From NCBI RefSeq assembly GCF_002646595.1, contig NZ_PDUD01000019.1:109128-173127 (forward strand): a DNA stretch of 64,000 nucleotides, in the 5' to 3' direction. Source of the stretch: Flavilitoribacter nigricans DSM 23189 = NBRC 102662. GTDB lineage: Bacteria > Bacteroidota > Bacteroidia > Chitinophagales > Saprospiraceae. The notes below the pieces were generated by a model. The model searched no databases. It was not told where the DNA came from and worked only from the letters and a program-made list of their open reading frames with translations. Position numbers and translations under genes: made by a program. Positions 4,485-21,049 of the stretch are shown here, in pieces. Position 1 is the first letter of the stretch, and each line of letters opens with the position of its first letter.

Positions 4485-6860
4485 TTACGGGCGGATCACT
4501 TTTCCTTTTGCTTTCGCTTCCTGCATCGGATTCGGGCGTTCTTCCGTTTTGTGGCTCTTGAACACCTGGAAGCGACTCGGCATTTCCATTACCGGCCAGT
4601 TGTTGTTGCTCTCATCGATGTCCGCCGTTTCCCGGAAAGGGTCCAGGCGAATGGCTTTCACTTCCTTTTCGGTCACAAAAACGCGGGAGAATTTGTCTTC
4701 ATTCTTCCGCCAGACCTGTGCCGGCAGGCGCTCCACTTTGGTGGTGCCGTCTTCAAAAGTGAATTCCAGGATCACCGGCATTACCAGACCACCCTTATTG
4801 CTGAAATACAGCTCGTAGTAGTTCTTGTCGCCGAATTTTTCCGTTTTTTCCTTTTTGCTCAGGGTCTCCGCGTACAGCTCTGTTTTCACCATAGTGACGG
4901 AATCGGCCGTTTCCCAGGGCTTATATTCGGTGTAGAAATCCACCAGCTCTTCGTCTTTCTCTATGGAGAATTCCAGGCCTTCTTCGCGGTTACGCTTCTT
5001 GGAAATGTGCTCGTAAGGCTTATCCCTTTTCACCGGATAGCTTACCTCGCGGGTTTCCGGATCACTCTCCAGGTCGACCTTGTACCACTGGATGCTGTCC
5101 AGGGAAATATCAACCGCTTCGGTGGTATAGAACCAACCGCGCCAGAACCAGTCCAGATCCACCGCACTGGCATCTTCCATGCTGCGGAAGAAATCAGCCG
5201 GAGTGGGGTGTTTGAACGCCCAGCGACGGCTGTACTCCTTGAAGGCATAGTCAAACAGTTCGCGACCCATGACGGTTTCCCGCAGGATGTTCAGCGCGGT
5301 AGCCGGTTTGGCGTAGGCATTCGGTCCGAACTGTACGATGTTTTCGCTATTGGTCATGATCGGTTCCAACAGATCCTTTTCCGCTTTCATGTAATCTGTG
5401 ATGGCGTAAGCCGGGCCCCGGCGGGAAGGATAGTTGTTGTCGAACTCCTGCTCGGTCAGGAACTGCAGGAAAGTATTGATCCCTTCGTCCATCCAGGTCC
5501 ACTGGCGTTCGTCACTGTTGATGATCATCGGGAAATAGTTGTGCCCCACTTCGTGAATGATCACACCGATCGCGCCGTACTTGGCCCGTTCGGTGTAGGT
5601 ACCGTCCTCTTCCGCACGACCGTAGTTGAAACAGATCATCGGATATTCCATACCGTTGGAAGCCTCAACGGAGATAGCTACCGGGTAGGGATAAGGAATG
5701 GTGTATTTGGAATAGGTCTTCAGCGTATGAGCGACCGTTTTGGTGGAATAGCGGTTGTAGATCGGATAAGCCTCTTTGCCGTAGTAGCTCATCGCCATCA
5801 CCCGCCGGCCGTCTTCGGTGAAGTGAGGCATGGCATCCCAGACGAATTTCGGGCTGGCCGTCCAGGCAAAGTCCCTTACGTTATCCGCTTTGTAGATCCA
5901 GGTTTTGGTGTTGGTAGCCTTTTTGGCTTTTTCTGTGGCTTTGGCTTCATCCAGGGTAACGATCTCGATGGGTTCTTTAGCCGTTTTGGCCTGCTCCCAA
6001 CGTTTCAACTGGGCCGGAGTCAGTACCGTGGAGTAATTCAGACACTCGCCGGTAGAGCCGACTACGTGGTCTTCCGGCACGGTCATTTTCACGATAAAGT
6101 TACCGAAAGTCAGCGCGAATTCTCCCCGTCCGGTGAACTGCTTGTTTTGCCATCCTTCCACATCACTGAACACACAGAGTCTTGGATACCACTGCGTTAT
6201 CGTAAAGATATAGTCATCTTCTTCTTCAAAATGCTCGTATCCACCCCGACCGCGGAAATAAGGATTCATCCGGTCGGTGATGTAATAGTGCCAATCCACA
6301 TTGAAGGCGAAAGTCTCTCCCGGCTTGAGCGGCTGTGGCAGATCCACCCGCATCATCGTCTGGTTGATGATGTATTTCAGGGGTTTTCCGTTCGCATCGG
6401 TGATGCTTTCGATCTTGTGTCCGTATTTGGAGCGATCGATATCTTCCAGGCGGCTGAGCGCACCTTCGCTCATGGTATTCCGCAGGCTGCTCGGATCGGC
6501 GTGGTGGCTGTCGGTCAGATCGGAATGTTCGTTTTCATCCAATTGCAACCACAGGTAACGCAGGGTATGTGGCGATTGATTGTAATACGTAATAAGTTCT
6601 TTCCCATCCAGTTTCAGATTATCCACGTCCAGCGTGCACTCAATGTCATAATCGGCACGCTGCTGCCAATATTCCGGTCCGGGTGCGCCGTCCGGTCCCC
6701 GGTAAATGTTGGGATCCGGCAGGGTTTCGCCGAGTTGTTCAAATTTGGTACCGTGATTGGAGCCCGGATTCTGGGCCCAGAGAAAACTGCCGGTGATCAG
6801 AAGGGTGAATACTGTAAGAAACCTTACTACATAAGGACTGTCAAGAAGGTTTTTCATCAT
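4485..6860 (-). CDS. M1-family zinc metallopeptidase (aminopeptidase N-like), secreted
   Basis: Exopeptidase motif 'GMEYPMI' and zinc-binding 'HEVGHNYF' (HEXXH) with a downstream Glu. N-terminal signal peptide. The 775-aa ORF on the opposite strand has no motifs and is a shadow ORF. Confidence 0.85.
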   Translation of the reverse strand: MMKNLLDSPYVVRFLTVFTLLITGSFLWAQNPGSNHGTKFEQLGETLPDPNIYRGPDGAPGPEYWQQRADYDIECTLDVDNLKLDGKELITYYNQSPHTLRYLWLQLDENEHSDLTDSHHADPSSLRNTMSEGALSRLEDIDRSKYGHKIESITDANGKPLKYIINQTMMRVDLPQPLKPGETFAFNVDWHYYITDRMNPYFRGRGGYEHFEEEDDYIFTITQWYPRLCVFSDVEGWQNKQFTGRGEFALTFGNFIVKMTVPEDHVVGSTGECLNYSTVLTPAQLKRWEQAKTAKEPIEIVTLDEAKATEKAKKATNTKTWIYKADNVRDFAWTASPKFVWDAMPHFTEDGRRVMAMSYYGKEAYPIYNRYSTKTVAHTLKTYSKYTIPYPYPVAISVEASNGMEYPMICFNYGRAEEDGTYTERAKYGAIGVIIHEVGHNYFPMIINSDERQWTWMDEGINTFLQFLTEQEFDNNYPSRRGPAYAITDYMKAEKDLLEPIMTNSENIVQFGPNAYAKPATALNILRETVMGRELFDYAFKEYSRRWAFKHPTPADFFRSMEDASAVDLDWFWRGWFYTTEAVDISLDSIQWYKVDLESDPETREVSYPVKRDKPYEHISKKRNREEGLEFSIEKDEELVDFYTEYKPWETADSVTMVKTELYAETLSKKEKTEKFGDKNYYELYFSNKGGLVMPVILEFTFEDGTTKVERLPAQVWRKNEDKFSRVFVTEKEVKAIRLDPFRETADIDESNNNWPVMEMPSRFQVFKSHKTEERPNPMQEAKAKGKVIRP

Positions 6861-7010: not shown

Positions 7011-7850
7011 ATGAATGGCAAGACCGGTATCTGGGATACGCTACCGCTCACCACCGACATGAATTCTGCTATGAAAAATATCATTACCATTTTCCTGTGC
7101 CTGCTGGCGCTGCCTATCCTGGCCCAGGACCTTTCCCTGTTTGAAAAAAGGACGTTTACGAATAAAAAAGGAGAAGTACTCCCCTACCGGATCCTCTTTC
7201 CGAAGAATTATGACGCCAGTAAAAAATACCCACTCGTGCTTTTCCTGCACGGTGGCGGCGAACGCGGAGACGATAATGAGAAGCAATTGGTGCACGGGGT
7301 AAAGGTGTTCCTGGGAGCGGAAAATCGCGAGCAATACCCGGCCATCGTCATTGCCCCGCAGTGCCCGGCCGACAGTTACTGGGGGTCGGTGAAATTCGAA
7401 CGGACTAAATATCCGCTGGATATGGATTTCAACTACGACTATGATATCACCACCGGGCTGCGCCTGGCCATGGAACTCACCAAACATACCATCAAACAGG
7501 AAGGTGTAGACAAAGACCGCGTTTACATTACCGGCCTTTCGATGGGCGGAATGGGTACACTGGAGGCCGTTTACCGGTTTCCCAAACGTTTTGCCGCAGC
7601 GGTTGCCGTTTGCGGCGGGGCCGATGTTGCCGCTTACAAAAAGAAACAGGCCCGCATCCCTTTTCGCCTGTACCACGGGGAAGTGGACGGGGTAGTTGCC
7701 GTTGACCATTCCCGGGCCATGTACGCCAAACTGCAGGAACTGGGCGCTGCAGTTTCCTATAAGGAATACCCCGGCGTCAATCACAACAGCTGGGAAAATG
7801 CCTACGCCGAGCCCGATCTGCTATCCTGGTTGTTTGCGCAGGAGCGATAG
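7011..7850 (+). CDS. alpha/beta-hydrolase fold esterase (phospholipase/carboxylesterase or prolyl-oligopeptidase-type), secreted
   Basis: Oxyanion-hole 'LHGGGE', nucleophile elbow 'GLSMGG', downstream His in 'VNHNSW'. Signal peptide MKNIITIFLCLLALPILAQ, so the real start may be an internal Met near 7059-7071. Confidence 0.75.
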   Translation: MNGKTGIWDTLPLTTDMNSAMKNIITIFLCLLALPILAQDLSLFEKRTFTNKKGEVLPYRILFPKNYDASKKYPLVLFLHGGGERGDDNEKQLVHGVKVFLGAENREQYPAIVIAPQCPADSYWGSVKFERTKYPLDMDFNYDYDITTGLRLAMELTKHTIKQEGVDKDRVYITGLSMGGMGTLEAVYRFPKRFAAAVAVCGGADVAAYKKKQARIPFRLYHGEVDGVVAVDHSRAMYAKLQELGAAVSYKEYPGVNHNSWENAYAEPDLLSWLFAQER

Positions 7851-7970
7851 GCGATACCGATCGGGACTACCGGATCAGTATAGACATAGTGCGATCAGGG
7901 AAGAGCAGGTAAGTTGCACCGATTCTCTTCGGATATTACAAAAAACTGATCTTGGTGAAGGATTTTTATA

Positions 7971-8005
7971 CTGATGCGGTGATAGTCATCGCACCACCGC
8001 ATCAG
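7971..8005. terminator. hairpin between convergent genes (esterase on plus, AraC on minus); likely bidirectional terminator
   Basis: 11-bp perfect stem CTGATGCGGTG/CACCGCATCAG with a 13-nt loop, followed by tatttatttc. Confidence 0.5.
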
Positions 8006-8013
8006 CCAGCTAT

Positions 8014-8877
8014 TTATTTCACGATCTTTTTCAATCCTTTACGATATTCCCGCGGACTGGCACCCGTGATCGCCTTGAACTGCTTGTTGAAGTGCGAAAG
8101 GTTGTTGAAACCACTTTCGTAACTAACGGCAGCGATACTCAAGTGATCGTCGGCGAGCAGACTACTGGCGTGCGCCACCCGGAATTCGTTGACGAATTGA
8201 GTAAACGTTTTATTCGTGAGTTTTTTGAAATAACGACAAAAGGCGGGCACCGTCATATTCGCCAGACGGGCGGCCGTTTCCAACTCTACGTCCGACAGAT
8301 AATTGTGCTCTACGTATTCGTAGATCTTCTCGATCCGCTCGTGATCCTGGCCGTTGACCTCCAGACCGAAACCGCTCGCATTGAGCATCTGGTATTCGGT
8401 AGAGGTAGCCATGGACTGCAGTACGCGCAGAAGCCGTAACATGCGATCAAAATTATCGAACTGCAGCATTTCCCGCAGCAAATCGCCCACCTGCTTTTTG
8501 GTCTCTCCGTTGAAACTCACGCCTACTTTGGAGCGCTCAAACAACTGCTGGATGGACTTCAGCTCCGGCCGGTTCAAAAATTCCGATCCCAGAAACTCTT
8601 CCTTCATCTGTACCACGATCTCGATGTGCCGTTCCTTCAGTCCTTCGGTAAAACCGAAGTGGGGAAGGTTGGGTCCCAGGAAGATCAGATCACCGTCTTC
8701 GTAATAAGAAATATGATCACCTATATGTCGCTTTCCTTTCCCGTTGGAGATATAAACGATCTCGTACTCGGGGTGGAAATGCCAACGGGGTGTATTGCAG
8801 TAATTCAGGTCATCGAAGTACCTCACTGTGAAAGAACTGCCAAACCCCGGTTCTATTTTTTCCAAACGTGCTTTCAT
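8014..8877 (-). CDS. AraC-family transcriptional regulator (N-terminal cupin-like sensor, C-terminal HTH)
   Basis: C-terminal 'AraC signature' region (PAFCRYFKKLTNKTFTQFVNEFRVAHASSLL ... GFNNLSHFNKQFKAITGASPREY). 287 aa. Confidence 0.8.
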   Translation of the reverse strand: MKARLEKIEPGFGSSFTVRYFDDLNYCNTPRWHFHPEYEIVYISNGKGKRHIGDHISYYEDGDLIFLGPNLPHFGFTEGLKERHIEIVVQMKEEFLGSEFLNRPELKSIQQLFERSKVGVSFNGETKKQVGDLLREMLQFDNFDRMLRLLRVLQSMATSTEYQMLNASGFGLEVNGQDHERIEKIYEYVEHNYLSDVELETAARLANMTVPAFCRYFKKLTNKTFTQFVNEFRVAHASSLLADDHLSIAAVSYESGFNNLSHFNKQFKAITGASPREYRKGLKKIVK

Positions 8878-11903: not shown

Positions 11904-13109
11904 TTAAAATTCCAGGTCTACCCCAACTTCTTCGTGCCAGGGCAATCCGTATTCATTCATTTTATCCAGGAAGGGATCCGGGTTGAATTCCTCTACATTG
12001 AATACGCCCGTACCGGACCATTCTCCGGTGAGGACCATCATCGCACCGATCATGGCCGGTACTCCCGTAGTATAGGAAACGCCCTGGGCGCCCGTTTCGT
12101 CGAAAGCGGCCTGGTGGCTGCAATTGTTCCAGATGTAATAGGTTTGTTCCTTACCGTTCTTGATCCCGCGGATGCGGCAACCAATAGACGTCTGGCCGGT
12201 ATAATTCTCCCCGAGTTCGCCGGGATCCGGCAGTACAGCCTTCAGGAATTCCAACGGAATGATATCCACGCCTTTGTATTTGACCGGATCGATCCGGGCC
12301 ATGCCGATATTCTGGATCACCCGCAGGTGCGTGAGGTATTCCTGACCGAAGGTCATCCAGAAACGGGCTCTTTTCAGACTGGGAAAGTTCTTCACGAGGG
12401 ATTCCAGTTCTTCGTGGTAAATGAGGTAAGAATCTTTCGGGCCGATGTCCGGATAGTTCAGCACTTTCATTTCCGAGTGCGGCGGGATCTCCACCCATTT
12501 GCCGTTTTCGTAGTAGCGACCGTTTTGGGTGATCTCCCGGATATTAATCTCCGGATTGAAGTTGGTGGCAAAAGCTTTACCGTGATCTCCGGCGTTGCAG
12601 TCCACGATATCCAGGTAATGCATCTCATCAAAGAAATGCTTCGCCGCCCGGGCGGTAAATACACTGGTAGCACCGGGATCAAAGCCACAGCCGAGTACGG
12701 CCATGATGCCTTTTTCCTTAAAGCGGTCCTGATAGGCCCACTGCCAGCTGTATTCGAATTTTGCTTCGTCTTTGGGTTCGTAGTTGGCCGTATCGAGGTA
12801 GTGCACCCCGGTTTCCAGGCAGGCTTCCATGATGGTAAGATCCTGGTAAGGCAAAGCTACGTGAATGACCAGTTTGGGGCCGAAAGAGCGGATCAATGCC
12901 GCCAGTTCGGGTACATTTTCCGCATCTACTGCGGCGGTGGTAATATGTTGATGACCGGTTGCGGCCTTGGCGTCGGCGGCAATTACATCGCACTTGGATT
13001 TGGTACGACTTGCCAGTAATATCTCCGAAAACACTTCGGGATGCTGGGCGCACTTGAAGGCGACTACCCGGCCGACACCGCCGGCACCTATGATCATAAC
13101 TTTTGACAT
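11904..13109 (-). CDS. saccharopine dehydrogenase family protein; in this context carboxynorspermidine/carboxyspermidine dehydrogenase
   Basis: N-terminal Rossmann motif 'MIIGAGGVGRVVA'. 401 aa. Forms an operon with nspC. Confidence 0.7.
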   Translation of the reverse strand: MSKVMIIGAGGVGRVVAFKCAQHPEVFSEILLASRTKSKCDVIAADAKAATGHQHITTAAVDAENVPELAALIRSFGPKLVIHVALPYQDLTIMEACLETGVHYLDTANYEPKDEAKFEYSWQWAYQDRFKEKGIMAVLGCGFDPGATSVFTARAAKHFFDEMHYLDIVDCNAGDHGKAFATNFNPEINIREITQNGRYYENGKWVEIPPHSEMKVLNYPDIGPKDSYLIYHEELESLVKNFPSLKRARFWMTFGQEYLTHLRVIQNIGMARIDPVKYKGVDIIPLEFLKAVLPDPGELGENYTGQTSIGCRIRGIKNGKEQTYYIWNNCSHQAAFDETGAQGVSYTTGVPAMIGAMMVLTGEWSGTGVFNVEEFNPDPFLDKMNEYGLPWHEEVGVDLEF

Positions 13110-15029: not shown

Positions 15030-15272
15030 ATGAGACTTCCAATCCAGGTTCAGCCTATCCTTCGGAATCATCTTAATTCCGTCAATCAAGACCGATTAAA
15101 CTTATCCAAGGCCAGACTCCGGCTGCAGGACTGTACCGGCGTACCCAATAATATCGTAGGCTCCTGCTTTGATAGCAACGGCCCGGTGCCGGGCCGGTTT
15201 AACTGTTCTGCATGCTGTGCACTCCGCGGCGCCATCTCTTGGCAGGGCGGTGGGTATGCAGTGGCTTGTTAA
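15030..15272 (+). CDS. small Cys-rich protein (80 aa) with an 'MRLPIQ' leader-like N-terminus; candidate precursor peptide
   Basis: ATG start. N-terminus M-x-L-P-x-Q-x-x-[PA]-[IV] shared with two other small ORFs (16997-17314, 17407-17580). C-terminal third holds 7 Cys (DCTG...GSCF...NCSACCALRGA...AVAC). Confidence 0.45.
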   Translation: MRLPIQVQPILRNHLNSVNQDRLNLSKARLRLQDCTGVPNNIVGSCFDSNGPVPGRFNCSACCALRGAISWQGGGYAVAC

Positions 15273-15366: not shown

Positions 15367-16152
15367 ATGGTCAATACCGCAAAACATTTCGCGCATTATT
15401 TCTTCCTTAAACCAAAATCATTCAAAATTATGGCAAATTCAATTAATTGGGATTCCGGCCAACTGATCAATCTGAACGTCGGTGACACCGCTACTTGTAA
15501 AGGTGGATTAAACGTTGGCCAGGTCTACGGCTTGTTTTTTTACAACGCAGCAGGTAACGACGCCTCTACGACCGTCAATGTGGTTTGGTCAAATTCCAAC
15601 CCTCCTGTGATGGTCAATGTTCCCGGAACGACCATGAATCAGGGGCTAGCAGCCATTTGCTTTGTAGACGGCAGCCAAACCAATACCGTTTCAGCCTCGG
15701 TTACGCACGGTAATCAGGGAGCAAATGTCCAAGCCTTCATTTGTAGCGTAAAAATGCCAGTAAATACCAGCGGGATCCAGAACACCCAACTTCCTCTGGA
15801 TGGTAATCAGCATCCATTTCATAAGTTTACCCGATTTTATGCAGTACCGGCATCTCACTGGTATTCGGCTCAGATTCAAAGCGATGTTAACCAGTTTATC
15901 AGTGTCCAATTTACCGAATCGAAGGCCAACGTATATATCGTAAATAAAATAGTCGATCCGTCTAACGTAATCAAGTACGCCGGTGACGCCCAGGACTTAG
16001 TGACCGTAAAAACCTCCGACCATCAGTCTATCTCCTTTAATTTGCAAGGCAACGGCCGACAGTTCGTCTGGATGAATGCTGACAGTATTCAAAACAGTCA
16101 GGACGCCACAATTGCAGTGCAATCGCTAAGCAATTTGTTTGCGACTTTGTAA
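15367..16152 (+). CDS. hypothetical N/S/T/Q/V-rich protein, predicted beta-rich, no signal peptide
   Basis: ORF directly downstream of the 80-aa peptide ORF. Probable start MANSINW near 15430. No recognisable domain. Confidence 0.45.
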   Translation: MVNTAKHFAHYFFLKPKSFKIMANSINWDSGQLINLNVGDTATCKGGLNVGQVYGLFFYNAAGNDASTTVNVVWSNSNPPVMVNVPGTTMNQGLAAICFVDGSQTNTVSASVTHGNQGANVQAFICSVKMPVNTSGIQNTQLPLDGNQHPFHKFTRFYAVPASHWYSAQIQSDVNQFISVQFTESKANVYIVNKIVDPSNVIKYAGDAQDLVTVKTSDHQSISFNLQGNGRQFVWMNADSIQNSQDATIAVQSLSNLFATL

Positions 16153-16285: not shown

Positions 16286-16828
16286 CTATTTTTTATTATT
16301 CACCAGAGCAAATATCCAACTCCATAGTGGATTCCCCATCGGAAACCTTGCTCCGCTTCCCCAGCGATAGTTGACCGGTGGCCTCAACACCGGAAGTTTC
16401 ATTCCATCTTCCCGTGCCGCAACTGCTGGAACCACCATCAACAAAGTAAAATGGAAAATCCCTACTTTCCCACTTTGCTCCTGGTCTCCCTCCTCCCTTA
16501 CCCTCACTTCCTGTTCCAATATAAAGCGTCCTCCCGGCTGTGCAGGCACTCCGTGGAATAGTTCGTTATCTCCCTTATCGTTGGTTACCGGATCCTTTTC
16601 GATCACCGTTATTGTTATCTTTCGCCGGATTTCGTCCAGAGCCGGGTCGAAATCCCCTTCTGCGATCAGTTCAGGTGATTCAAATAATTTTTCTTCTCCG
16701 TTTCGGAGCAACATATCTTTTGTATAATCTGTCCGAAGGGCACGGATAGCGATAGACAGGTCTTTTCCCATATTATCTCCAGTGTATCGGATCGATTGCA
16801 GGTAAAGTTTAACCTTTGGAGTATTCAT
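16286..16828 (-). CDS. hypothetical protein (180 aa)
   Basis: ORF downstream, on the minus strand, of the Cys-rich peptide genes. No known motif. Confidence 0.4.
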   Translation of the reverse strand: MNTPKVKLYLQSIRYTGDNMGKDLSIAIRALRTDYTKDMLLRNGEEKLFESPELIAEGDFDPALDEIRRKITITVIEKDPVTNDKGDNELFHGVPAQPGGRFILEQEVRVREEGDQEQSGKVGIFHFTLLMVVPAVAAREDGMKLPVLRPPVNYRWGSGARFPMGNPLWSWIFALVNNKK

Positions 16829-16996
16829 AAACGGAAGCTTTTAAATGAGGAAATGAACAGAGGGCAGAAAGACATTCCTTCTGCCCCGGGTCTGTTGAAG
16901 ACTTATACACGACGTAGGGTGGAATTATCCTGATGGTATTTGACAGCTCAGGACCGAACCTGCTCCTACATCTGTATACATCTTCCCTATGCGGCC

Positions 16997-17314
16997 TTAG
17001 CCACAAAAACTTTTCAATACTGCAGGTATTGGAATACCGATCTTTTCTGCGCCGGATACCGCCGTACAGATCACGGTTTTGGCTCCTCCTTCAATACAAT
17101 CTTCACAGTCGGATACGAAACTGGCAAAAGCTGGTAAACAGAGCGGAAGATCTTCCGGAAAACCCAGGGGGTCACAGGGGCCAACAACCAGAAGACCAAA
17201 TTTGCCGGCACATTTCAATCCTTCGCCCAAACTGCAGCTGGTCTTTAGGTGACGTCGAAGCAAGGGTAGATCACGAGATTTTAGCACCGCGTGGTGTTGA
17301 TTGGGAAGTTTCAT
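16997..17314 (-). CDS. small Cys-rich protein (105 aa) with an 'MKLPNQ' leader-like N-terminus; candidate precursor peptide
   Basis: ATG start. Nine Cys. Start context ATAATTA-ATG-AAA-CTT-CC is nearly identical to that of the 57-aa ORF. An 8-bp hairpin (16862-16886) lies downstream. Confidence 0.45.
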   Translation of the reverse strand: MKLPNQHHAVLKSRDLPLLRRHLKTSCSLGEGLKCAGKFGLLVVGPCDPLGFPEDLPLCLPAFASFVSDCEDCIEGGAKTVICTAVSGAEKIGIPIPAVLKSFCG

Positions 17315-17356
17315 AATTATTGGATTTTATGATGAGCAGAACTAGATAAATGACAA

Positions 17357-17384
17357 TGAGGCAAGAGGAGCACCTCTTGCCTCA
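17357..17384. terminator. strong hairpin between the two tandem small Cys-rich ORFs; candidate attenuator or terminator
   Basis: Perfect 12-bp stem TGAGGCAAGAGG/CCTCTTGCCTCA with a 4-nt loop AGCA. Flanked by moderately T-rich sequence on both strands. Confidence 0.55.
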
Positions 17385-17406
17385 TACCAAATTTTAAACT
17401 GAAGTG

Positions 17407-17580
17407 CTAGCAGACGGTTGCATTGCAGGCCGCAATACAAAGCGTTTTTGCTATACCGGTCAGCATGCTGCAGCCCGCCATACAAATATCACAAGGGATA
17501 GATGACAACTGCATTCCGTTGGAGCGGTAATTCACTTTGCTGGCCTTCTGTACAGGCACAGCTTGCTTTGGAAGATTCAT
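17407..17580 (-). CDS. unannotated small Cys-rich ORF (57 aa, MNLPKQAVPVQKASKVNYRSNGMQLSSIPCDICMAGCSMLTGIAKTLCIAACNATVC); candidate precursor peptide
   Basis: Translated by hand from the minus strand. ATG at 17580, TAG at 17407-17409. It is below the 60-aa cutoff of the supplied track. It lies 37 nt downstream of the S8 protease stop. Confidence 0.45.
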   Translation of the reverse strand: MNLPKQAVPVQKASKVNYRSNGMQLSSIPCDICMAGCSMLTGIAKTLCIAACNATVC

Positions 17581-17616
17581 AATTATGAAATTTTAAAGGT
17601 GAAAAAATGAATGGAA

Positions 17617-19659
17617 TTAGTGGATATACCAGGAGCGCACGCTACCGATAGTAACCGGCACGACATCACTGACATCGACAGTATAGCGGTACACTTTTCT
17701 GGCCTTTTCGTAGCGTTGCAGGGGATCAAAGAAGATCAGTTGTACATCGTATCCATCGACGCCGGGACGTACGATCGGACTCTTCGTTACTTTGATATCA
17801 GTGAGTTGGAGTGAATCTGCAGCTGCTGCCTGGAAAACACTATTGGCAGTGAAAGCATTAGTAGCCGCATAGTTGAGCGCCCGTTCCTGTGGAGTAAGTC
17901 CGAAGTTGCGGAATTCGTAGTAAACACGTTCCAGGAAATTAGCCAGTGCTTCAATGGTAGAGGTATCGCCCACTGCTTCTGCCAGGGCTTGGGTGGACCA
18001 TTCGGCCATTCCCCGCAGAGAAGGTACGATAGCCGGAACTACCTGCCCGTTGAGCAAAGTCACTTTACCCGCAATTATACCCGGCACAGCAACTCTTTCC
18101 ACACCGTTCTCCTCTAATTGTCCTTTCAATGAATCGACCAGTCGCTCGTAGGTAAGGTGGGCGTATGCTCCCAGGGGATGAATGGCGTAAATGGGCGTTC
18201 CCTCCTGTTCCAACGTCCAGATAAGCTCCGTAGCTTCGTACATATTGCCTGATTCCAGGTGATCAATTACCACCTGAGGATCGTTCAGGTTATCATTGAT
18301 ATGTTGTAGGAATGAGTCGCGCCGGGATTCATTGACAAAGTCATAGCCAATGGTACCCAGAGCGTATACTTTCTGGTGAGTGGCACCGGCATTTCCTTTC
18401 TTTCCACCACAGCTACATCCTCCACTTTCTTTTTTCCCACCGCAACCACATCCGCAGGAGGGCTCGATCTCAGAGGGAGAAATACGGGGCAAATCGGTGG
18501 TAACAGTGATATCTGATATGGCCTGGCTCAAGGATTCGTTAGTTTTGGCTTCGGAAAAGTTTTCCATTGGTTGTAATTCTAATGATTCTGAAAGTTGAAC
18601 CTGCACGGAAGCACCTTCATTCCGTACATCCTGGTCCAGTTCGGATAGTTTTTTATGGACATTTTCCATGGTAGAAGAATTTTTTATGTTAATTAATGGA
18701 GAATTGGTATCGATTGGAGTGGCCAGCTGTGCTGCCCCTGAGGTGAAGTCTTCCATCCGTTCTGCCGGTCTCACCTTCGCCGGAAGGATCAACTCCTGTA
18801 AAGCTGCTTGAACATTGAGCGTGCCTCGCAAAAAGCGACTGCACTCTTCGATATTTCGATCCGGACAGGGATTTGCCGTCTGAAGCAAAATATTCTTTAT
18901 GCGATGGGGATCAGGTTGTTCGCCTCTTTTTATTAGCAGACTGAGTAATAAGGCCACCACCCCGGAAACGTAGGGAGTAGCAAAGCTGGTACCGGATTTT
19001 GGTCCGTACCGACCGTTGGTCAAGGCCCCGTTAATATTTCTGCCCGGAGCGAGCAGTCCGTTGGTGAGATAGGCATCGCCCCAGTTGCTGTCAGGAAGAG
19101 GTATACCGGAAATATCCATTGCTCCTACCGTTAATACGGTAGGTACAGCAGCTGGGACATGTAGGCAACGACATCCGTTATTTCCAGCGGCCGCAACGAC
19201 CAGTATATTTTCTTTATCACACTGCTCTAAAGCACGCGCCAATACCTCATCCGGTTCACCAAAATCATCCAGTTCCCCGGCGCTGATATTGATTACGTGT
19301 ACTTTATGTTGAATCGCTTTGTTAATTGCCCTGGCCAGATCGAGTTGAGTAGCCAACTGTACTTTCTTATCAGACGTCATCTCAAATAGCGGAATGATAA
19401 TTCCGGTCACTTGGGGCGCAATCCCTTTGACCAGCGAATGATGCTGGCCAAAAATGATACTGCTGACGTGGGTTCCGTGATCGGAAGGTTCGCAGCTGGC
19501 CTCATCATCCCCGTATATGCTAACCTGGGACAATTGAGCTCCAGCCAGCGCCGGATGATCCAACTCCGCCGGACCGTCGATAATAGCTATGCGAATATCA
19601 GGTTCACCCAGGGTCAGTGCCCACAGGCGACCAATATCCTCGTGGACTTGATCGTACAT
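17617..19659 (-). CDS. subtilisin-like (S8) serine protease with a ~300-aa C-terminal domain resembling the PatA/PatG-family C-terminal DUF
   Basis: Catalytic triad motifs 'IAIIDG' (Asp), 'DHGTHVS' (His), 'GTSFATPYVSG' (Ser). No signal peptide. Gly/Cys-rich linker 'SCGCGCGGKKESGGCSCGGKKGNAG'. The C-terminal domain carries 'VYALGTIGYDFVNESRRDSF', recalled to be characteristic of cyanobactin protease C-terminal domains. Confidence 0.75.
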   Translation of the reverse strand: MYDQVHEDIGRLWALTLGEPDIRIAIIDGPAELDHPALAGAQLSQVSIYGDDEASCEPSDHGTHVSSIIFGQHHSLVKGIAPQVTGIIIPLFEMTSDKKVQLATQLDLARAINKAIQHKVHVINISAGELDDFGEPDEVLARALEQCDKENILVVAAAGNNGCRCLHVPAAVPTVLTVGAMDISGIPLPDSNWGDAYLTNGLLAPGRNINGALTNGRYGPKSGTSFATPYVSGVVALLLSLLIKRGEQPDPHRIKNILLQTANPCPDRNIEECSRFLRGTLNVQAALQELILPAKVRPAERMEDFTSGAAQLATPIDTNSPLINIKNSSTMENVHKKLSELDQDVRNEGASVQVQLSESLELQPMENFSEAKTNESLSQAISDITVTTDLPRISPSEIEPSCGCGCGGKKESGGCSCGGKKGNAGATHQKVYALGTIGYDFVNESRRDSFLQHINDNLNDPQVVIDHLESGNMYEATELIWTLEQEGTPIYAIHPLGAYAHLTYERLVDSLKGQLEENGVERVAVPGIIAGKVTLLNGQVVPAIVPSLRGMAEWSTQALAEAVGDTSTIEALANFLERVYYEFRNFGLTPQERALNYAATNAFTANSVFQAAAADSLQLTDIKVTKSPIVRPGVDGYDVQLIFFDPLQRYEKARKVYRYTVDVSDVVPVTIGSVRSWYIH

Positions 19660-19765: not shown

Positions 19766-20476
19766 TTACCATTTTGGAGCGAGATTCGGATTACCCTTAC
19801 CATAAATACTAGAGAATCTGGACGGCGCACAACCGAATTCCTTTTTAAAACTTCGGCAGAAACTGGTTTGATTGCTATATCCTACCTCGTCCGAAACTGC
19901 TCCCACCGAAGCTACATTGCTGAGTAATAGTTTTGCCGCGTATTGTAAACGAATAACACGGATAAGGTTTCCGGTTGAACAATTTATGATTATCCGTGTC
20001 CGCCGGTTGAGTTGTGAATTACTTAAACCAATACGATGAGCCAGAAAGGAAACATCCAGCTGAGGAGCGCTGATATACCGGAAAATCAACCGCACCAGCT
20101 TTCGAACAAAAATCTCCTCTTGAGTATCCAATGAAATAGTTAATTCAAGCCAATTGAAAGCTAAAGTCATTAAATTATCAACCCCGCATTCCCGATTATT
20201 TAAACTGCGATACCAAGCCGACTCAATATTATTCACCAAATTTCCAGATCCGGTTTCGGATAGCTCTTGGTCTTTAATGTAGATCGTTCTCCTTAGATCT
20301 TTTCGACCGTATAGCCAGCCCCTCCCACGGGGTTCTGCTTGCTGCTGAAATTTATTTTTTTCGAAAAATGCATACCGTTGGATATCCTCCCAGGACGCAA
20401 CATTATGGCGTTCCAAATTTGACTTTATCATAATTTTCAGGCTTGGATGTTTGTAAGTTACCGCTGTCCAGGGCAA
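19766..20476 (-). CDS. AraC-type HTH domain transcriptional regulator
   Basis: C-terminal dual HTH region (IGLSNSQLNRRTR ... GYSNQTSFCRSFKKEFGCAPSRF). Confidence 0.65.
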   Translation of the reverse strand: MPWTAVTYKHPSLKIMIKSNLERHNVASWEDIQRYAFFEKNKFQQQAEPRGRGWLYGRKDLRRTIYIKDQELSETGSGNLVNNIESAWYRSLNNRECGVDNLMTLAFNWLELTISLDTQEEIFVRKLVRLIFRYISAPQLDVSFLAHRIGLSNSQLNRRTRIIINCSTGNLIRVIRLQYAAKLLLSNVASVGAVSDEVGYSNQTSFCRSFKKEFGCAPSRFSSIYGKGNPNLAPKW

Positions 20477-20635
20477 AGCAGCTTCTGTGAACAGATGTCC
20501 TTCCGGACCAGTCCCTTAAATGAAATCAGCGGTGAGATTAGATCTTGGATTTAAACAAAGTTAACGTTCCGTATTCAGCTGCACTTGCACATTTCACGCA
20601 TCCATTTGCATTATCTGCGCAAGCTGTTTACGGGT

Positions 20636-21049
20636 TTAACGGGCAGCTCTCCGGCGAAACGTTGAGGGTGTACAATTGAACTGCTTCTTAAACCGGCGGC
20701 AAAAATAAGCCTGGTCCCGAAAGCCGCAGCGGTAGGCGATGTCTCCGATACTGGCCACATTGCTTTCCAGCAGACCGGCCGCGTGCCGGAGTCGAATTTC
20801 CAGGATCAGTTTTCCGGCGGATTGACCGATCAGTTTGTTGAGTTTGCGATTGAGCTGAGAAACGCTCAGGTGGATATTATCGGCCAGGTCCTGTACACTG
20901 AAATGCTCGTTCGCGAGGTTGCGTACGATGTGGTGCCGCACTTTTTCCAGAAATTGTTCATCCTGGGAGATGAGGTACCTGGTGATGCTTTGGGGCCATT
21001 GAAATTTGTCGGTAGTTAATGGTTTAAAATTGGGGGGTATTTCGTTCAT
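20636..21049 (-). CDS. short AraC-type HTH protein (137 aa, no obvious sensor domain)
   Basis: HTH_18/AraC signature (IHLSVSQLNRKLNKLIG ... GFRDQAYFCRRFKKQFNCTPSTF). Only about 30 residues precede the DNA-binding domain. Confidence 0.6.
   Translation of the reverse strand: MNEIPPNFKPLTTDKFQWPQSITRYLISQDEQFLEKVRHHIVRNLANEHFSVQDLADNIHLSVSQLNRKLNKLIGQSAGKLILEIRLRHAAGLLESNVASIGDIAYRCGFRDQAYFCRRFKKQFNCTPSTFRRRAAR

What the first reader, a model, noticed from the sequence alone, without database searches (positions are those of the whole stretch)
17407..17580. Unannotated 57-aa Cys-rich ORF immediately downstream of the protease
Hand translation of the minus strand gives MNLPKQAVPVQKASKVNYRSNGMQLSSIPCDICMAGCSMLTGIAKTLCIAACNATVC (ATG 17580, TAG 17407). 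It is below the ORF-track cutoff, so routine annotation would miss it. Position (37 nt after the protease stop), a hydrophilic leader, and a hydrophobic core with 7 Cys and a C-terminal Cys fit a precursor or bacteriocin-like peptide.
Basis: seen in the sequence. Interest (0 to 1): 0.7.

Follow-up and report, generated by a model that had tools for sequence, protein, structure and literature searches.

The report
Cysteine-rich cyanobactin-type precursor peptide gene
The 57-codon reading frame is a real, conserved gene for a small cysteine-rich peptide that is almost certainly made as a precursor and trimmed by the neighbouring PatA-type protease, and it belongs to an undescribed peptide family found next to such proteases in several bacterial phyla.

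Summary
The ORF at 17407..17580 (-) exists as described. Corrections: it has 6 Cys, not 7; the gap to the protease stop is 36 nt; and RefSeq already lists it as a hypothetical protein of Flavilitoribacter nigricans.

It is a real gene. A syntenic metagenome locus gives dN/dS about 0.14 with dS about 1.1, and a profile search finds 50 cluster representatives.

The upstream 680-aa gene is an A-type (leader-removing) PatA/PatG-family protease. In all 10 contexts with enough sequence, across Bacteroidota, Alpha- and Betaproteobacteria and metagenomes, a family member lies downstream of such a protease.

The leader carries LPxQxxPVx(R/K), also present in the verified cyanobactin precursors PatE and AcyE. 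At the leader/core junction the family shows G-(V/I/L/M)-x-(P/A)-S, which matches the published PatA cleavage site.

The core (C-x2-C-x3-C-x10-C-x3-C-x4-C) is predicted to be a helix-loop-helix. Cys counts are even in 37 of 38 members.

Two further precursors with the same leader, pepB and pepC, lie nearby. No macrocyclase, heterocyclase, PatB/C or exporter was found.

Best reading: a PatA-only, linear, disulfide-stapled peptide. Cleavage, disulfides, export and activity are inferred. I rate it a new variant of a known kind.

The parts
17407..17580 (-). pepA: 57-aa precursor peptide gene (the finding), stop codon included
   Evidence: Translation. RefSeq WP_170110358.1. dN/dS 0.14 against L001. 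50-representative family.
17503..17580 (-). Predicted leader, residues 1-26: N-terminal LPKQAVPVQK motif and the G22-M-Q-L-S26 junction. Cleavage is predicted after S26.
   Evidence: Family columns: P4 37/38, Q6 36/38, P9 32/38, V10 30/38, R12 34/38; junction G 22/38, V/I/L/M 38/38, P/A 31/38, S 33/38. PatA-like enzymes cleave after G(L/V)E(A/P)S (PMC10885120). Coil in the AF2 model. Cleavage itself is inferred.
17410..17502 (-). Predicted 31-aa core SIPCDICMAGCSMLTGIAKTLCIAACNATVC: 6 Cys, a twin CX3C plus an outer Cys pair, helix-loop-helix
   Evidence: AF2 gives helices 28-37 and 43-55 with block pLDDT 86-92 over residues 31-57. Cys pattern conserved in 31/38 members, and the outer pair is lost together in two members. 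Disulfides are inferred.
17581..17616 (-). 36-nt protease-pepA spacer, nearly identical in the orthologous locus despite saturated synonymous divergence; a possible promoter or translation-initiation element
   Evidence: Window ...ATTTTTTCACCTTTAAAATTTCATAATT against L001 ...ATTTTTTCACCTATAAAATTTCATAATT. Function is inferred.
17356..17385 (-). 13-bp stem-loop just after the pepA stop (terminator- or stabiliser-like)
   Evidence: The L001 orthologue keeps the stem through a paired G-C to A-T change. Strong hairpins also follow pepA homologues in L006, L010, L013, L018, L019 and L021.
17617..19659 (-). 680-aa PatA/PatG-family protease, A-type: S8 domain at about residues 9-290, Cys/Gly-rich linker, C-terminal PatG_D/PatG_C domain of unknown function at about residues 429-678
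   Evidence: TIGR03895 626.8 bits against a cut-off of 421. Pfam S8 + PatG_D + PatG_C. Best PDB matches are PagA 4h6w (9e-89) and PatA 4h6v (2e-82), against PatG macrocyclase 4aks (3e-43). D28, H61 and S225 are invariant.
16997..17314 (-). pepB: 105-aa second precursor with the same leader (MKLPNQ..., L23-K-T-S26) and an 8-Cys core
   Evidence: 63-78% identical relatives lie directly after PatA-type proteases in L001, L007 and L008. Saturated synonymous divergence with 79% amino-acid identity. AF2 gives a helical core with a disordered leader. Exact sequence not in the protein collection.
16861..16887 (-). 12-bp stem-loop after pepB
15030..15272 (+). pepC: 80-aa third precursor with the same leader (MRLPIQVQPILR, L23-N-L-S26) and a 6-Cys core, on the opposite strand
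   Evidence: Orthologue in L001 at 12876..12637. Leader HMM E = 2.7e-4. Exact sequence not in the protein collection.
16286..16828 (-). orfC: conserved 180-aa protein of unknown function at the end of the operon; no family assigned
   Evidence: 55% identical orthologue in L001, dN/dS 0.16. No Pfam or NCBIfam hit. Whether it belongs to the system is not established.
19766..21049 (-). Two AraC-family regulator genes (19766..20476 and 20636..21049) upstream on the same strand, syntenic in L001; candidate regulators
   Evidence: Pfam HTH_18/HTH_AraC. Synteny. A regulatory role is inferred.

Best explanation
pepA encodes the precursor of a cyanobactin-type ribosomal peptide that needs only one maturation enzyme.

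- It is probably transcribed with, or just downstream of, the protease gene, and its message ends in a conserved stem-loop.
- The 57-aa product has a 26-residue hydrophilic leader carrying the LPxQxxPVx(R/K) motif of cyanobactin precursors.
- The adjacent A-type PatA-family subtilisin is predicted to cut after G22-M-Q-L-S26.
- This releases a 31-residue hydrophobic core that folds as a helix-loop-helix.
- The core is predicted to be stapled by three nested disulfides: C37-C48, C33-C52 (a twin CX3C, as in plant alpha-hairpinins) and C30-C57.
- There is no macrocyclisation, heterocyclisation or prenylation, so the product is linear.
- pepB and pepC, which share the leader and the same 26-residue leader length, are further substrates of the same protease.

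Shown here: the gene is real and under purifying selection; the family exists; it is linked to the protease across phyla; leader and junction motifs are shared; a helical hairpin is predicted; Cys parity holds and the outer Cys pair is lost together.

Inferred: the actual cleavage and its site, disulfide formation and connectivity, export, and a probable antagonistic (bacteriocin or toxin-like) role.
For: Coding and selection:
- dN/dS 0.14 at dS about 1.1, one in-frame indel, and third-position-biased changes (9/7/25) against syntenic L001.

Family:
- 50 representatives at E <= 1e-3.
- Members in Flavilitoribacter, Janthinobacterium, Mesorhizobium and many metagenomes, all named 'hypothetical protein'.

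Protease type:
- TIGR03895 above its cut-off.
- The S8 domain is far closer to PagA/PatA than to the PatG macrocyclase.
- Gloeothece PatA aligns over its full length, whereas PatG aligns only through its C-terminal domain.

Linkage:
- A protease lies directly upstream on the same strand in the window, L001, L006, L010, L012, L013, L018, L019, L020 and L021.

Leader:
- P.Q..PV.R occurs in 18 of 5544 six-frame ORFs. These are 15 family members plus PatE (two entries) and AcyE, with no decoys and 0.34 expected by chance.
- The PatE and AcyE sequences were verified by exact look-up.
- 5 of 38 members weakly hit TIGR03678 and 2 of 38 hit TIGR04446; in the two hits examined in detail (one per model) the match lies in the leader region.

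Junction:
- G-(V/I/L/M)-x-(P/A)-S in the family against the published G(L/V)E(A/P)S (PMC10885120).
- An exact GVEPS occurs in a Mesorhizobium paralogue.

Hypervariable cores behind near-identical leaders:
- L020 (4 genes), L012 (3-4), L018, L021 and L006 (2 each).

Fold and disulfides:
- AF2 helix-loop-helix, core pLDDT about 90.
- Cys count is even in 37/38 cores. C30 and C57 are lost together in two members, and in the two members that keep all six canonical Cys any extra Cys come in twos.
- Thioredoxin-fold genes lie nearby in L012, L018 and L020.
Against: - No experiment shows cleavage, disulfides, secretion or activity.
- The window's own junction (GMQLS) departs from the A/P consensus at P2.
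- HMM similarity of the leader to PatE and AcyE is only about 7 bits. NCBIfam precursor models score about 14 bits against cut-offs of 35-40, and pepA itself hits neither.
- The protease has no signal peptide and no exporter gene is conserved nearby, so it is unclear where disulfides would form or how the peptide leaves the cell.
- The core is uncharged, unlike most antimicrobial peptides.
- The Foldseek matches to alpha-hairpinin-type structures are not significant (E = 3.4).
- Published ITC/NMR work found no binding of the PatG C-terminal domain to PatE (PMC4259220), so the role of the leader motif is open.
Confidence: 0.72

Rival explanations
1. The peptide is an intracellular Cys-rich metal- or redox-active small protein (metallothionein or chaperone-like). 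The protease merely processes or degrades it, and the Cys bind metal ions rather than forming disulfides.
For: The protease lacks a signal peptide and no exporter is conserved nearby. The protease linker is itself Cys/Gly-rich. The core has six Cys and is uncharged.
Against: - The Cys count is even in 37/38 members, the outer pair is lost together, and in the two members that keep all six canonical Cys the extras come in twos. This fits pairwise bonding better than metal sites.
- The CX3C...CX3C spacing on two predicted antiparallel helices is the disulfide-stapled hairpin pattern.
- Several very different cores share one leader within an operon, which is typical of secreted toxins or RiPPs rather than a housekeeping metal binder.
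- Thioredoxin-fold genes lie nearby in three loci.
Confidence: 0.1
2. The small Cys-rich proteins are inhibitors, or trans-acting folding or regulatory partners, of the adjacent subtilisin rather than its substrates.
For: They are strictly adjacent to the protease. From general knowledge, some plant alpha-hairpinins inhibit serine proteases.
Against: - The leader carries the same motif as genuine PatA substrates, and the junction matches the PatA cleavage consensus.
- Multiple hypervariable cores, including a Cys-free one in L015, follow one conserved leader. An inhibitor would be expected to conserve the interacting core instead.
Confidence: 0.08
3. The Cys are further modified (thioether, thiazoline or radical-SAM chemistry) by enzymes encoded elsewhere, so the product is a heavily modified RiPP rather than a disulfide peptide.
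For: Radical SAM genes lie near the module in Janthinobacterium (L010) and in L013. Canonical cyanobactins heterocyclise Cys.
Against: No heterocyclase, oxidase, PatB/C or radical SAM homologue lies in the window or in most related loci. The two radical SAM genes show no similarity to each other and sit in different positions. The RSI heterocyclase recognition element of the PatE leader is absent.
Confidence: 0.07
4. The ORF is a chance open frame in an intergenic region.
For: ORFs of this length are common by chance: 175 in the window against about 118 in shuffles.
Against: Purifying selection, an in-frame indel, a conserved start and a cross-phylum family.
Confidence: 0.02

Closest known systems
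Cyanobactin precursor peptides (PatE, AcyE; NCBIfam TIGR03678 / TIGR04446) and PatA-mediated leader removal
   Same: Short precursor encoded next to a PatA/PatG-family protease. N-terminal LPxQxxPVxR-type leader motif. G-(L/V)-x-(A/P)-S-type junction before the core. Conserved leader with hypervariable cores, and several precursor genes per locus.
   Different: - No C-terminal recognition sequence (AYDG); the peptide ends at the last Cys.
- No LAELSEE element.
- No PatG macrocyclase, heterocyclase, oxidase, prenyltransferase or PatB/C.
- One long core of about 30 residues (79 in pepB), rather than one to four cores of 3-20 residues.
- Host is Bacteroidota or Proteobacteria rather than cyanobacteria.
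- Scores far below the family cut-offs.
Linear cyanobactins (aeruginosamides, viridisamide A)
   Same: The product is not macrocyclised and the leader is removed by a PatA homologue.
   Different: Those are 3-5-residue peptides with a prenylated N-terminus and a C-terminal thiazole (methylated in the aeruginosamides), made by clusters that still encode PatD, PatG and PatF-type enzymes (PMC4663559). Here the product is a predicted peptide of about 31 residues held by disulfides, with no tailoring genes.
Plant alpha-hairpinins (e.g. EcAMP, vicilin-buried peptides) and other twin-CX3C helical hairpins
   Same: CX3C-X10/11-CX3C pattern on a helix-loop-helix. The published pairing is C1-C4 and C2-C3 (PMC11253845). 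The top, non-significant, Foldseek matches are the Ara h 1 and Ana o 1 leader peptides.
   Different: - Bacterial rather than plant.
- An extra outer Cys pair, giving three predicted disulfides.
- Released by a cytoplasmic PatA-type subtilisin from a cyanobactin-type leader rather than via the secretory pathway.
- Neutral and hydrophobic rather than mostly cationic.
- No detectable sequence homology was shown.
Disulfide-containing unmodified bacteriocins (class II, e.g. laterosporulin-type; from general knowledge)
   Same: Small ribosomal peptide with a cleaved leader, stabilised only by disulfides, and a possible antagonistic role.
   Different: Those use double-glycine or Sec leaders and dedicated ABC exporters or immunity genes. 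None of these is present here, and the processing enzyme is a PatA-family subtilisin.

Membership tests
Cyanobactin precursor (E peptide) | Encoded next to a PatA-family N-terminal protease | tested here: met
   36 nt downstream of a TIGR03895 protease. The same arrangement holds in 10/10 informative contexts.
Cyanobactin precursor (E peptide) | Conserved N-terminal leader motif (LPQQGQPVIR in PatE, RPQQVAPVER in AcyE) | tested here: met
   pepA has LPKQAVPVQK and the family consensus is LPxQAxPVxR. The regex P.Q..PV.R hits only family members plus PatE and AcyE among 5544 ORFs. By HMM the similarity is weak, at 7 bits.
Cyanobactin precursor (E peptide) | RSII protease site G(L/V)E(A/P)S immediately before the core | tested here: inconclusive
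   The family junction is G-(V/I/L/M)-x-(P/A)-S, but the window peptide has GMQLS. Actual cleavage was not tested.
Cyanobactin precursor (E peptide) | RSIII (AYDG-type) C-terminal recognition sequence for macrocyclisation | tested here: not met
   The peptide ends ...NATVC*. 23/38 members end at the last Cys.
Cyanobactin precursor (E peptide) | Score above the NCBIfam cut-off for TIGR03678 or TIGR04446 | tested here: not met
   pepA hits no family. The two family hits examined score about 14 bits against cut-offs of 35-40; across all 38 members the best E-value is 0.0047.
Canonical cyanobactin gene cluster | PatG-type macrocyclase plus PatB/PatC (and optionally a heterocyclase, oxidase or prenyltransferase) | tested here: not met
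   tblastn with the Gloeothece PatG, PatB, PatC, heterocyclase and oxidase finds only the single A-type protease, matched through the shared C-terminal domain, in the 64-kb window and the related loci.
PatA-type (A) protease, TIGR03895 | Full-length match above cut-off, with S8 + PatG_D + PatG_C architecture | tested here: met
   626.8 bits against 421. Pfam domains.
PatA-type (A) protease, TIGR03895 | A-type rather than G-type (macrocyclase) subtilisin domain | tested here: met
   PagA 9e-89 and PatA 2e-82, against PatG macrocyclase 3e-43. The alignment to PagA is essentially gap-free.
PatA-type (A) protease, TIGR03895 | Intact Asp-His-Ser catalytic triad | tested here: met
   D28 (IIDGP), H61 (HGTH) and S225 (GTSFA) are invariant in four proteases and align with PagA and PatA. 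Activity was not tested.
Alpha-hairpinin / twin-CX3C helical hairpin | CX3C-Xn-CX3C motif | tested here: met
   C33-x3-C37-x10-C48-x3-C52, conserved in 35 of 38 members. Published pattern C1X3C2X11C3X3C4.
Alpha-hairpinin / twin-CX3C helical hairpin | Helix-loop-helix fold | tested here: met
   AF2 helices 28-37 and 43-55, core pLDDT about 90. This is a prediction only, and the Foldseek matches are not significant.
Alpha-hairpinin / twin-CX3C helical hairpin | C1-C4 / C2-C3 disulfide connectivity | not testable with these tools
   Only indirect support: Cys parity and joint loss of the outer pair.
Bacteriocin | Secreted and antimicrobial, with immunity and/or export genes | not testable with these tools
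   No exporter or immunity gene was recognised. Activity is unknown.

The most novel reading that the evidence does not exclude
The pepA family and its sister cores (pepB, pepC, pepD and the 8-Cys types) may define a widespread, cross-phylum class of 'PatA-only' ribosomal peptides. These would be linear, disulfide-stapled helical hairpins or bundles, in effect bacterial alpha-hairpinins, with hypervariable cores behind one cyanobactin-type leader. In that case the conserved LPxQxxPVxR leader motif could be the long-sought ligand of the conserved PatA/PatG C-terminal domain of unknown function.
Probability: 0.25. Interest if true: 0.75.

Novelty: new variant of a known kind. Interest (0 to 1): 0.6.

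Why it matters
Cyanobactins are a heavily used platform for peptide engineering, yet they are regarded as essentially cyanobacterial. Two conserved features also remain unexplained: the N-terminal part of the leader, and the C-terminal domain of PatA and PatG.

A minimal two-component version (one protease plus precursors) in culturable Bacteroidota and Proteobacteria would:
- extend the class to long, disulfide-rich products;
- offer a simple system for testing what the leader motif and the C-terminal domain do;
- add a family of compact, stable Cys-stapled helical hairpins with hypervariable sequences as candidate antimicrobials or scaffolds.

On the practical side, two of the three precursor genes in this locus seem to be missing from public protein sets, as does a similar ORF in Acaryochloris marina pREB2. 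Annotation pipelines are therefore under-calling this family.

Tried and rejected
Searches that gave little or nothing:
- Genome-contig scans with the protease alone (nothing) and with a four-protease alignment (one Bacteroidales MAG) gave little. Contexts were obtained through the look-up of encoding contigs instead.
- A profile search of the family against PDB sequences did not retrieve PatE chains; the only hits were chance matches such as glucokinase.
- A leader-only HMM scores PatE and AcyE at just 7 bits, so the link rests on the exact short motif and on gene context, not on HMM significance.
- Foldseek of the AF2 model against the PDB gave no significant hit.
- Pairwise BLAST of pepA against pepB found nothing; their relatedness is confined to the leader.
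- Pfam and NCBIfam have no model for any of the precursor classes.
- Rfam and tRNA scans of the locus were empty.
- An all-against-all BLAST found no accessory gene shared by all contexts, so orfC, the 310-334-aa ORF, the PUD1_2/DUF6895 genes, patatin and the redoxins are lineage-specific neighbours.

Literature: seven searches found no full paper on this family. One of them was wasted on 'GLEAS', which matched 'Gleason'. The only prior hint is a 2019 conference abstract (in PMC7024214) stating that cyanobactin pathways occur across bacteria and include disulfide-bridged antimicrobial peptides.

Rejected readings: a chance ORF; macrocyclic (cyclotide-like) products, because the protease is A-type and there is no follower sequence; and heterocyclised Cys, because there is no heterocyclase.
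Full report
**1. The observation**

The minus-strand ORF from ATG 17580 to TAG 17407 is present and translates to MNLPKQAVPVQKASKVNYRSNGMQLSSIPCDICMAGCSMLTGIAKTLCIAACNATVC. Three details need correcting:
- It has six cysteines (positions 30, 33, 37, 48, 52, 57), not seven.
- The spacer to the upstream stop codon is 36 nt.
- The ORF is not unannotated. The identical sequence is RefSeq WP_170110358.1, 'hypothetical protein [Flavilitoribacter nigricans]'.

This identifies the window as Flavilitoribacter nigricans (Bacteroidota, Saprospiria, Lewinellaceae).

The leader half is hydrophilic (GRAVY -0.65, four Lys/Arg, no acidic residues). The second half is hydrophobic and uncharged overall (GRAVY +1.31).

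An ORF of this length is not remarkable in itself. The window holds 175 Met-to-stop ORFs of at least 57 aa, and shuffles give about 118.

**2. It is a real gene**

A 60-kb metagenome contig (L001) carries the whole neighbourhood in the same order: AraC, AraC, a 680-aa protease, a 58-aa peptide, a 105-aa ORF and a 175-aa ORF.
- Nucleotide identity is only about 73%.
- Against this orthologue pepA has 81% amino-acid identity, dN/dS 0.14 at dS about 1.1, and a single in-frame codon indel. The protease has dN/dS 0.09.
- Differences fall 9/7/25 on codon positions 1/2/3.

A profile built from three sequences, searched against 1.84 billion cluster representatives, found 50 proteins at E <= 1e-3, nearly all 56-66 aa long. 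A second search placed members in Janthinobacterium spp. (Betaproteobacteria), Mesorhizobium sp. KR9-304 (Alphaproteobacteria) and many metagenomes. Every named member is called 'hypothetical protein'. Neither Pfam nor NCBIfam has a model for the family.

**3. The neighbouring protease**

[quoted passage not shown] Pfam gives Peptidase_S8 + PatG_D + PatG_C, and NCBI annotates the protein this way.

The subtilisin domain is of the A type, which removes leaders:
- It matches the solved N-terminal proteases PagA (4h6w, 9e-89) and PatA (4h6v and 3zxx, about 1e-82) with essentially gap-free alignments.
- The PatG macrocyclase domains reach only about 1e-43.

The C-terminal half matches the PatG domain of unknown function (4uvq, 2e-51). 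Asp28, His61 and Ser225 are invariant among four related proteases.

Using the annotated Gloeothece PCC 7822 cyanobactin genes as queries, only PatA aligns over its full length. No macrocyclase domain, PatB, PatC, heterocyclase or oxidase homologue exists anywhere in the 64-kb window or in the flanks of the related loci.

**4. Linkage of peptide and protease**

Every family member recovered on a contig long enough to judge lies downstream of, and on the same strand as, a PatA-type protease. These are:
- the window and L001;
- Janthinobacterium L010/L011;
- L013/L014;
- L018, L019, L020 and L021;
- L006, whose first 153 nt encode the protease C-terminus;
- Mesorhizobium L012, where the gene caller missed the S8 domain but tblastn finds it at 5373-6209.

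That is 10 of 10 contexts spanning at least three bacterial classes, plus metagenomes of unknown affiliation. No other gene is shared by all contexts.

**5. A shared leader with many cores**

A search for the N-terminal motif showed that pepA is one of several precursor types.

In the window itself there are two more:
- pepB (16997..17314, -, 105 aa, 8 Cys, MKLPNQHHAVLK...);
- pepC (15030..15272, +, 80 aa, 6 Cys, MRLPIQVQPILR...).

In all three window precursors a hydrophobic-x-x-Ser motif occupies residues 23-26 (MQLS, LKTS, LNLS), so all three have a 26-residue leader.

pepB relatives (63-78% identical) directly follow PatA-type proteases in more distant loci (L007, L008), where another type (pepD, ending CCCP) comes next.

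Related loci hold tandem arrays with near-identical leaders and different Cys-rich cores: four in L020, three or four in L012, and two each in L018, L021 and L006. A Bacteroidales MAG has the same leader on a Cys-free, Gly/Ala-rich core.

Between the window and L001, the pepA leader differs at 11.5% of nucleotides and the core at 34%. A conserved leader with hypervariable cores is the signature of ribosomal natural-product and toxin precursors.

**6. The leader is of the cyanobactin type**

The family consensus is M-x-L-P-x-Q-A-x-P-V-x-R, with P4 in 37/38 members, Q6 in 36/38, P9 in 32/38, V10 in 30/38 and R12 in 34/38.

I recalled the PatE and AcyE sequences from memory and verified them by exact look-up, as 'patellamide precursor protein' and 'anacyclamide precursor AcyE'. 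They read ...ILPQQGQPVIR... and ...IRPQQVAPVER... near their N-termini.

The pattern P.Q..PV.R occurs in 18 of 5544 six-frame ORFs from all sequences in hand. These are 15 family members, the two PatE entries and AcyE; there are no decoys, and 0.34 occurrences are expected by composition.

By HMM the similarity is weak:
- The leader HMM scores PatE and AcyE at 7 bits.
- Five of 38 members touch TIGR03678 and two touch TIGR04446. The two hits examined in detail score about 14 bits, far below the cut-offs, and both lie in the leader region.

The same kind of ORF also occurs in cyanobacteria. In Acaryochloris marina plasmid pREB2, an unannotated ORF 70 nt after a lone PatA/G protease reads MRIPNQ...GGVQPS|GPGLGRLCNEICRSPGGGGVCPLCEF....

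**7. The predicted cleavage site**

A review of RiPP leader proteases states that PatA-like enzymes cleave after G(L/V)E(A/P)S (PMC10885120).

In the family alignment, the five columns before the core are G (22/38), V/I/L/M (38/38), variable, P/A (31/38) and S (33/38). Exact cyanobactin-like sites occur in relatives: GVEPS in a Mesorhizobium paralogue, GVEAS in P0017 and GVTPS in P0022.

The window peptide has G22-M-Q-L-S26, which predicts cleavage between S26 and S27. This would release a 31-residue core, SIPCDICMAGCSMLTGIAKTLCIAACNATVC. This step is inferred, and the Leu at P2 is atypical.

There is no sequence after the core: 23 of 38 members end at the last Cys. Macrocyclisation by the PatG mechanism is therefore excluded.

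**8. The core**

The Cys spacing C-x2-C-x3-C-x10-C-x3-C-x4-C is kept in 31 of 38 members. It contains a twin CX3C motif, the pattern of plant alpha-hairpinins, whose disulfides pair C1-C4 and C2-C3 (PMC11253845).

AlphaFold2 with the 38-sequence alignment gives a coil leader and two helices (28-37 and 43-55). Block pLDDT is 86-92 over residues 31-57, and the overall mean is 80.6.

Foldseek against the PDB has no significant match. Its top hits (E = 3.4; rmsd 1.1 Å over 28 columns) are the Ara h 1 and Ana o 1 vicilin leader peptides, which are of that hairpin type.

Indirect support for disulfides:
- Cores have an even number of Cys in 37 of 38 members: 6 in 32, 8 in three, 4 in two.
- The two 4-Cys members have lost C30 and C57 together.
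- In the two members that keep all six canonical Cys, the extra Cys come as pairs.
- Thioredoxin-fold (AhpC/TSA-redoxin) genes lie just downstream in L012, L018 and L020.

I therefore predict three nested disulfides: C37-C48, C33-C52 and C30-C57. Connectivity is not testable here.

**9. Expression signals**

The 36-nt spacer between the protease and pepA is almost identical in L001 (27 of 28 positions of its 3' part), although synonymous sites are saturated.

A 13-bp stem-loop follows the pepA stop at 17385..17356. L001 keeps it through a compensatory G-C to A-T change. Strong hairpins follow pepA homologues in six other loci (-17 to -52 kcal/mol). A second hairpin follows pepB. No Rfam family or tRNA lies in the locus.

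Two AraC-type regulators sit upstream in both the window and L001.

**10. Interpretation**

The best-supported reading is a minimal, 'PatA-only' cyanobactin-type system. One A-type protease trims a set of precursors that share a cyanobactin-like leader, and the products are linear peptides stabilised by disulfides.

Open points:
- where oxidation happens and how the peptide leaves the cell, since the protease has no signal peptide and no exporter is conserved;
- what the peptide does, given that the core is neutral and hydrophobic, unlike typical cationic antimicrobials;
- what reads the N-terminal leader motif. Published ITC/NMR work found no binding of the PatG C-terminal domain to PatE (PMC4259220).

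The rival readings are weaker, for the reasons given under each rival: a metal-binding intracellular peptide, a protease inhibitor or partner, and further Cys modification by unlinked enzymes.

**11. Novelty**

The protease family, leader proteolysis by PatA and linear cyanobactins are all known. A 2019 conference abstract reports that cyanobactin pathways occur across bacteria and include disulfide-bridged antimicrobial peptides (in PMC7024214).

I found no full description of this precursor family in seven literature searches. It has no model in Pfam or NCBIfam, and all members are annotated as hypothetical. It fails several defining tests for canonical cyanobactins: no RSIII, no PatG, no PatB/C, and scores below the model cut-offs.

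I therefore class it as a new variant of a known kind, of moderate to good interest.

Noticed in passing
window 16997..17314 (-) and 15030..15272 (+): Two further Cys-rich precursor genes, pepB (105 aa, 8 Cys) and pepC (80 aa, 6 Cys), carry the same leader and the same 26-residue leader length. Their exact sequences are absent from the 15-billion-protein collection, so they appear to be unannotated, unlike pepA.
   Followed up: partly
window about 16286..16403 (-), inside orfC (16286..16828): The conserved 180-aa orfC has an in-frame internal MKLPVLRPPV... near its C-terminus (MKLPELRAPV in L001). It resembles the precursor leader motif and could be a fused or internally initiated Cys-free peptide.
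   Followed up: no
window about 18403..18456 (-), protease residues 402-419: The linker between the S8 domain and the C-terminal domain is Cys/Gly-rich (CGCGCGGKKESGGCSCGG). C402, G403, C415, C417, G418 and G419 are invariant in four Bacteroidota proteases, suggesting a possible metal or redox site.
   Followed up: no
window 17581..17616: The protease-pepA spacer is almost identical to that of L001 although synonymous sites are saturated. pepA and pepB also share ATAATTATGAA around their start codons, which suggests a conserved initiation or promoter element, or gene conversion between leaders.
   Followed up: partly
L016 9981..10169 (Acaryochloris marina MBIC11017 plasmid pREB2, NC_009927.1): An unannotated 62-aa ORF lies 70 nt after a lone PatA/PatG-family protease. 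It has an MRIPNQ... leader, a GGVQPS junction and a 4-Cys core. The PatA-only, Cys-rich variant therefore also exists in cyanobacteria.
   Followed up: partly
L017 14550..14765 (Gloeothece verrucosa PCC 7822 plasmid, NC_014534.1): [quoted passage not shown] It matches the leader HMM (E = 0.009), hinting that PatB proteins carry a precursor-like N-terminus.
   Followed up: no
proteins P0032, P0039, P0029 (short JGI metagenome contigs): Three metagenome proteins of 118-294 aa carry repeats of the core Cys pattern (C-x2-C-x3-C-x10/11-C-x3-C-x4-C): two in P0029, about four in P0032 and at least two clear copies in P0039. The repeats are separated by Lys/Ser/Asp-rich spacers and lack the LPxQ leader. 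They look like multi-core precursors of the plant alpha-hairpinin kind. Their source organism is unknown.
   Followed up: partly
L015 10834..10983 (Bacteroidales MAG, CBDDLB010000006.1): The same MKLPNQ leader sits on a Cys-free, Gly/Ala-rich 49-aa peptide just after a PatA-type protease. The leader/protease module therefore also serves non-Cys cores.
   Followed up: no
L012 5373..7329 and 7452..8466 (Mesorhizobium sp. KR9-304): The gene caller placed a minus-strand gene over the S8 domain, but tblastn shows a complete PatA-type protease on the plus strand. It is followed by three or four tandem precursors, one with an exact GVEPS site, and then a redoxin gene.
   Followed up: partly
L018 5530..6699, L020 9159..10274, L012 9313..9861: Thioredoxin-fold (AhpC-TSA/Redoxin) genes lie a few genes downstream of the precursors in three unrelated loci, preceded by a patatin gene in L018 and L020. 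They may help with oxidative folding.
   Followed up: no
window 15367..16152 (+) against L001 11841..12605: The 261-aa ORF after pepC and the 254-aa ORF in the syntenic position in L001 show no BLAST similarity (E <= 1e-3). L001's 254-aa and 164-aa ORFs (the latter with a faint PixA match) are paralogues of each other. This slot next to the precursor genes seems to be variable.
   Followed up: no
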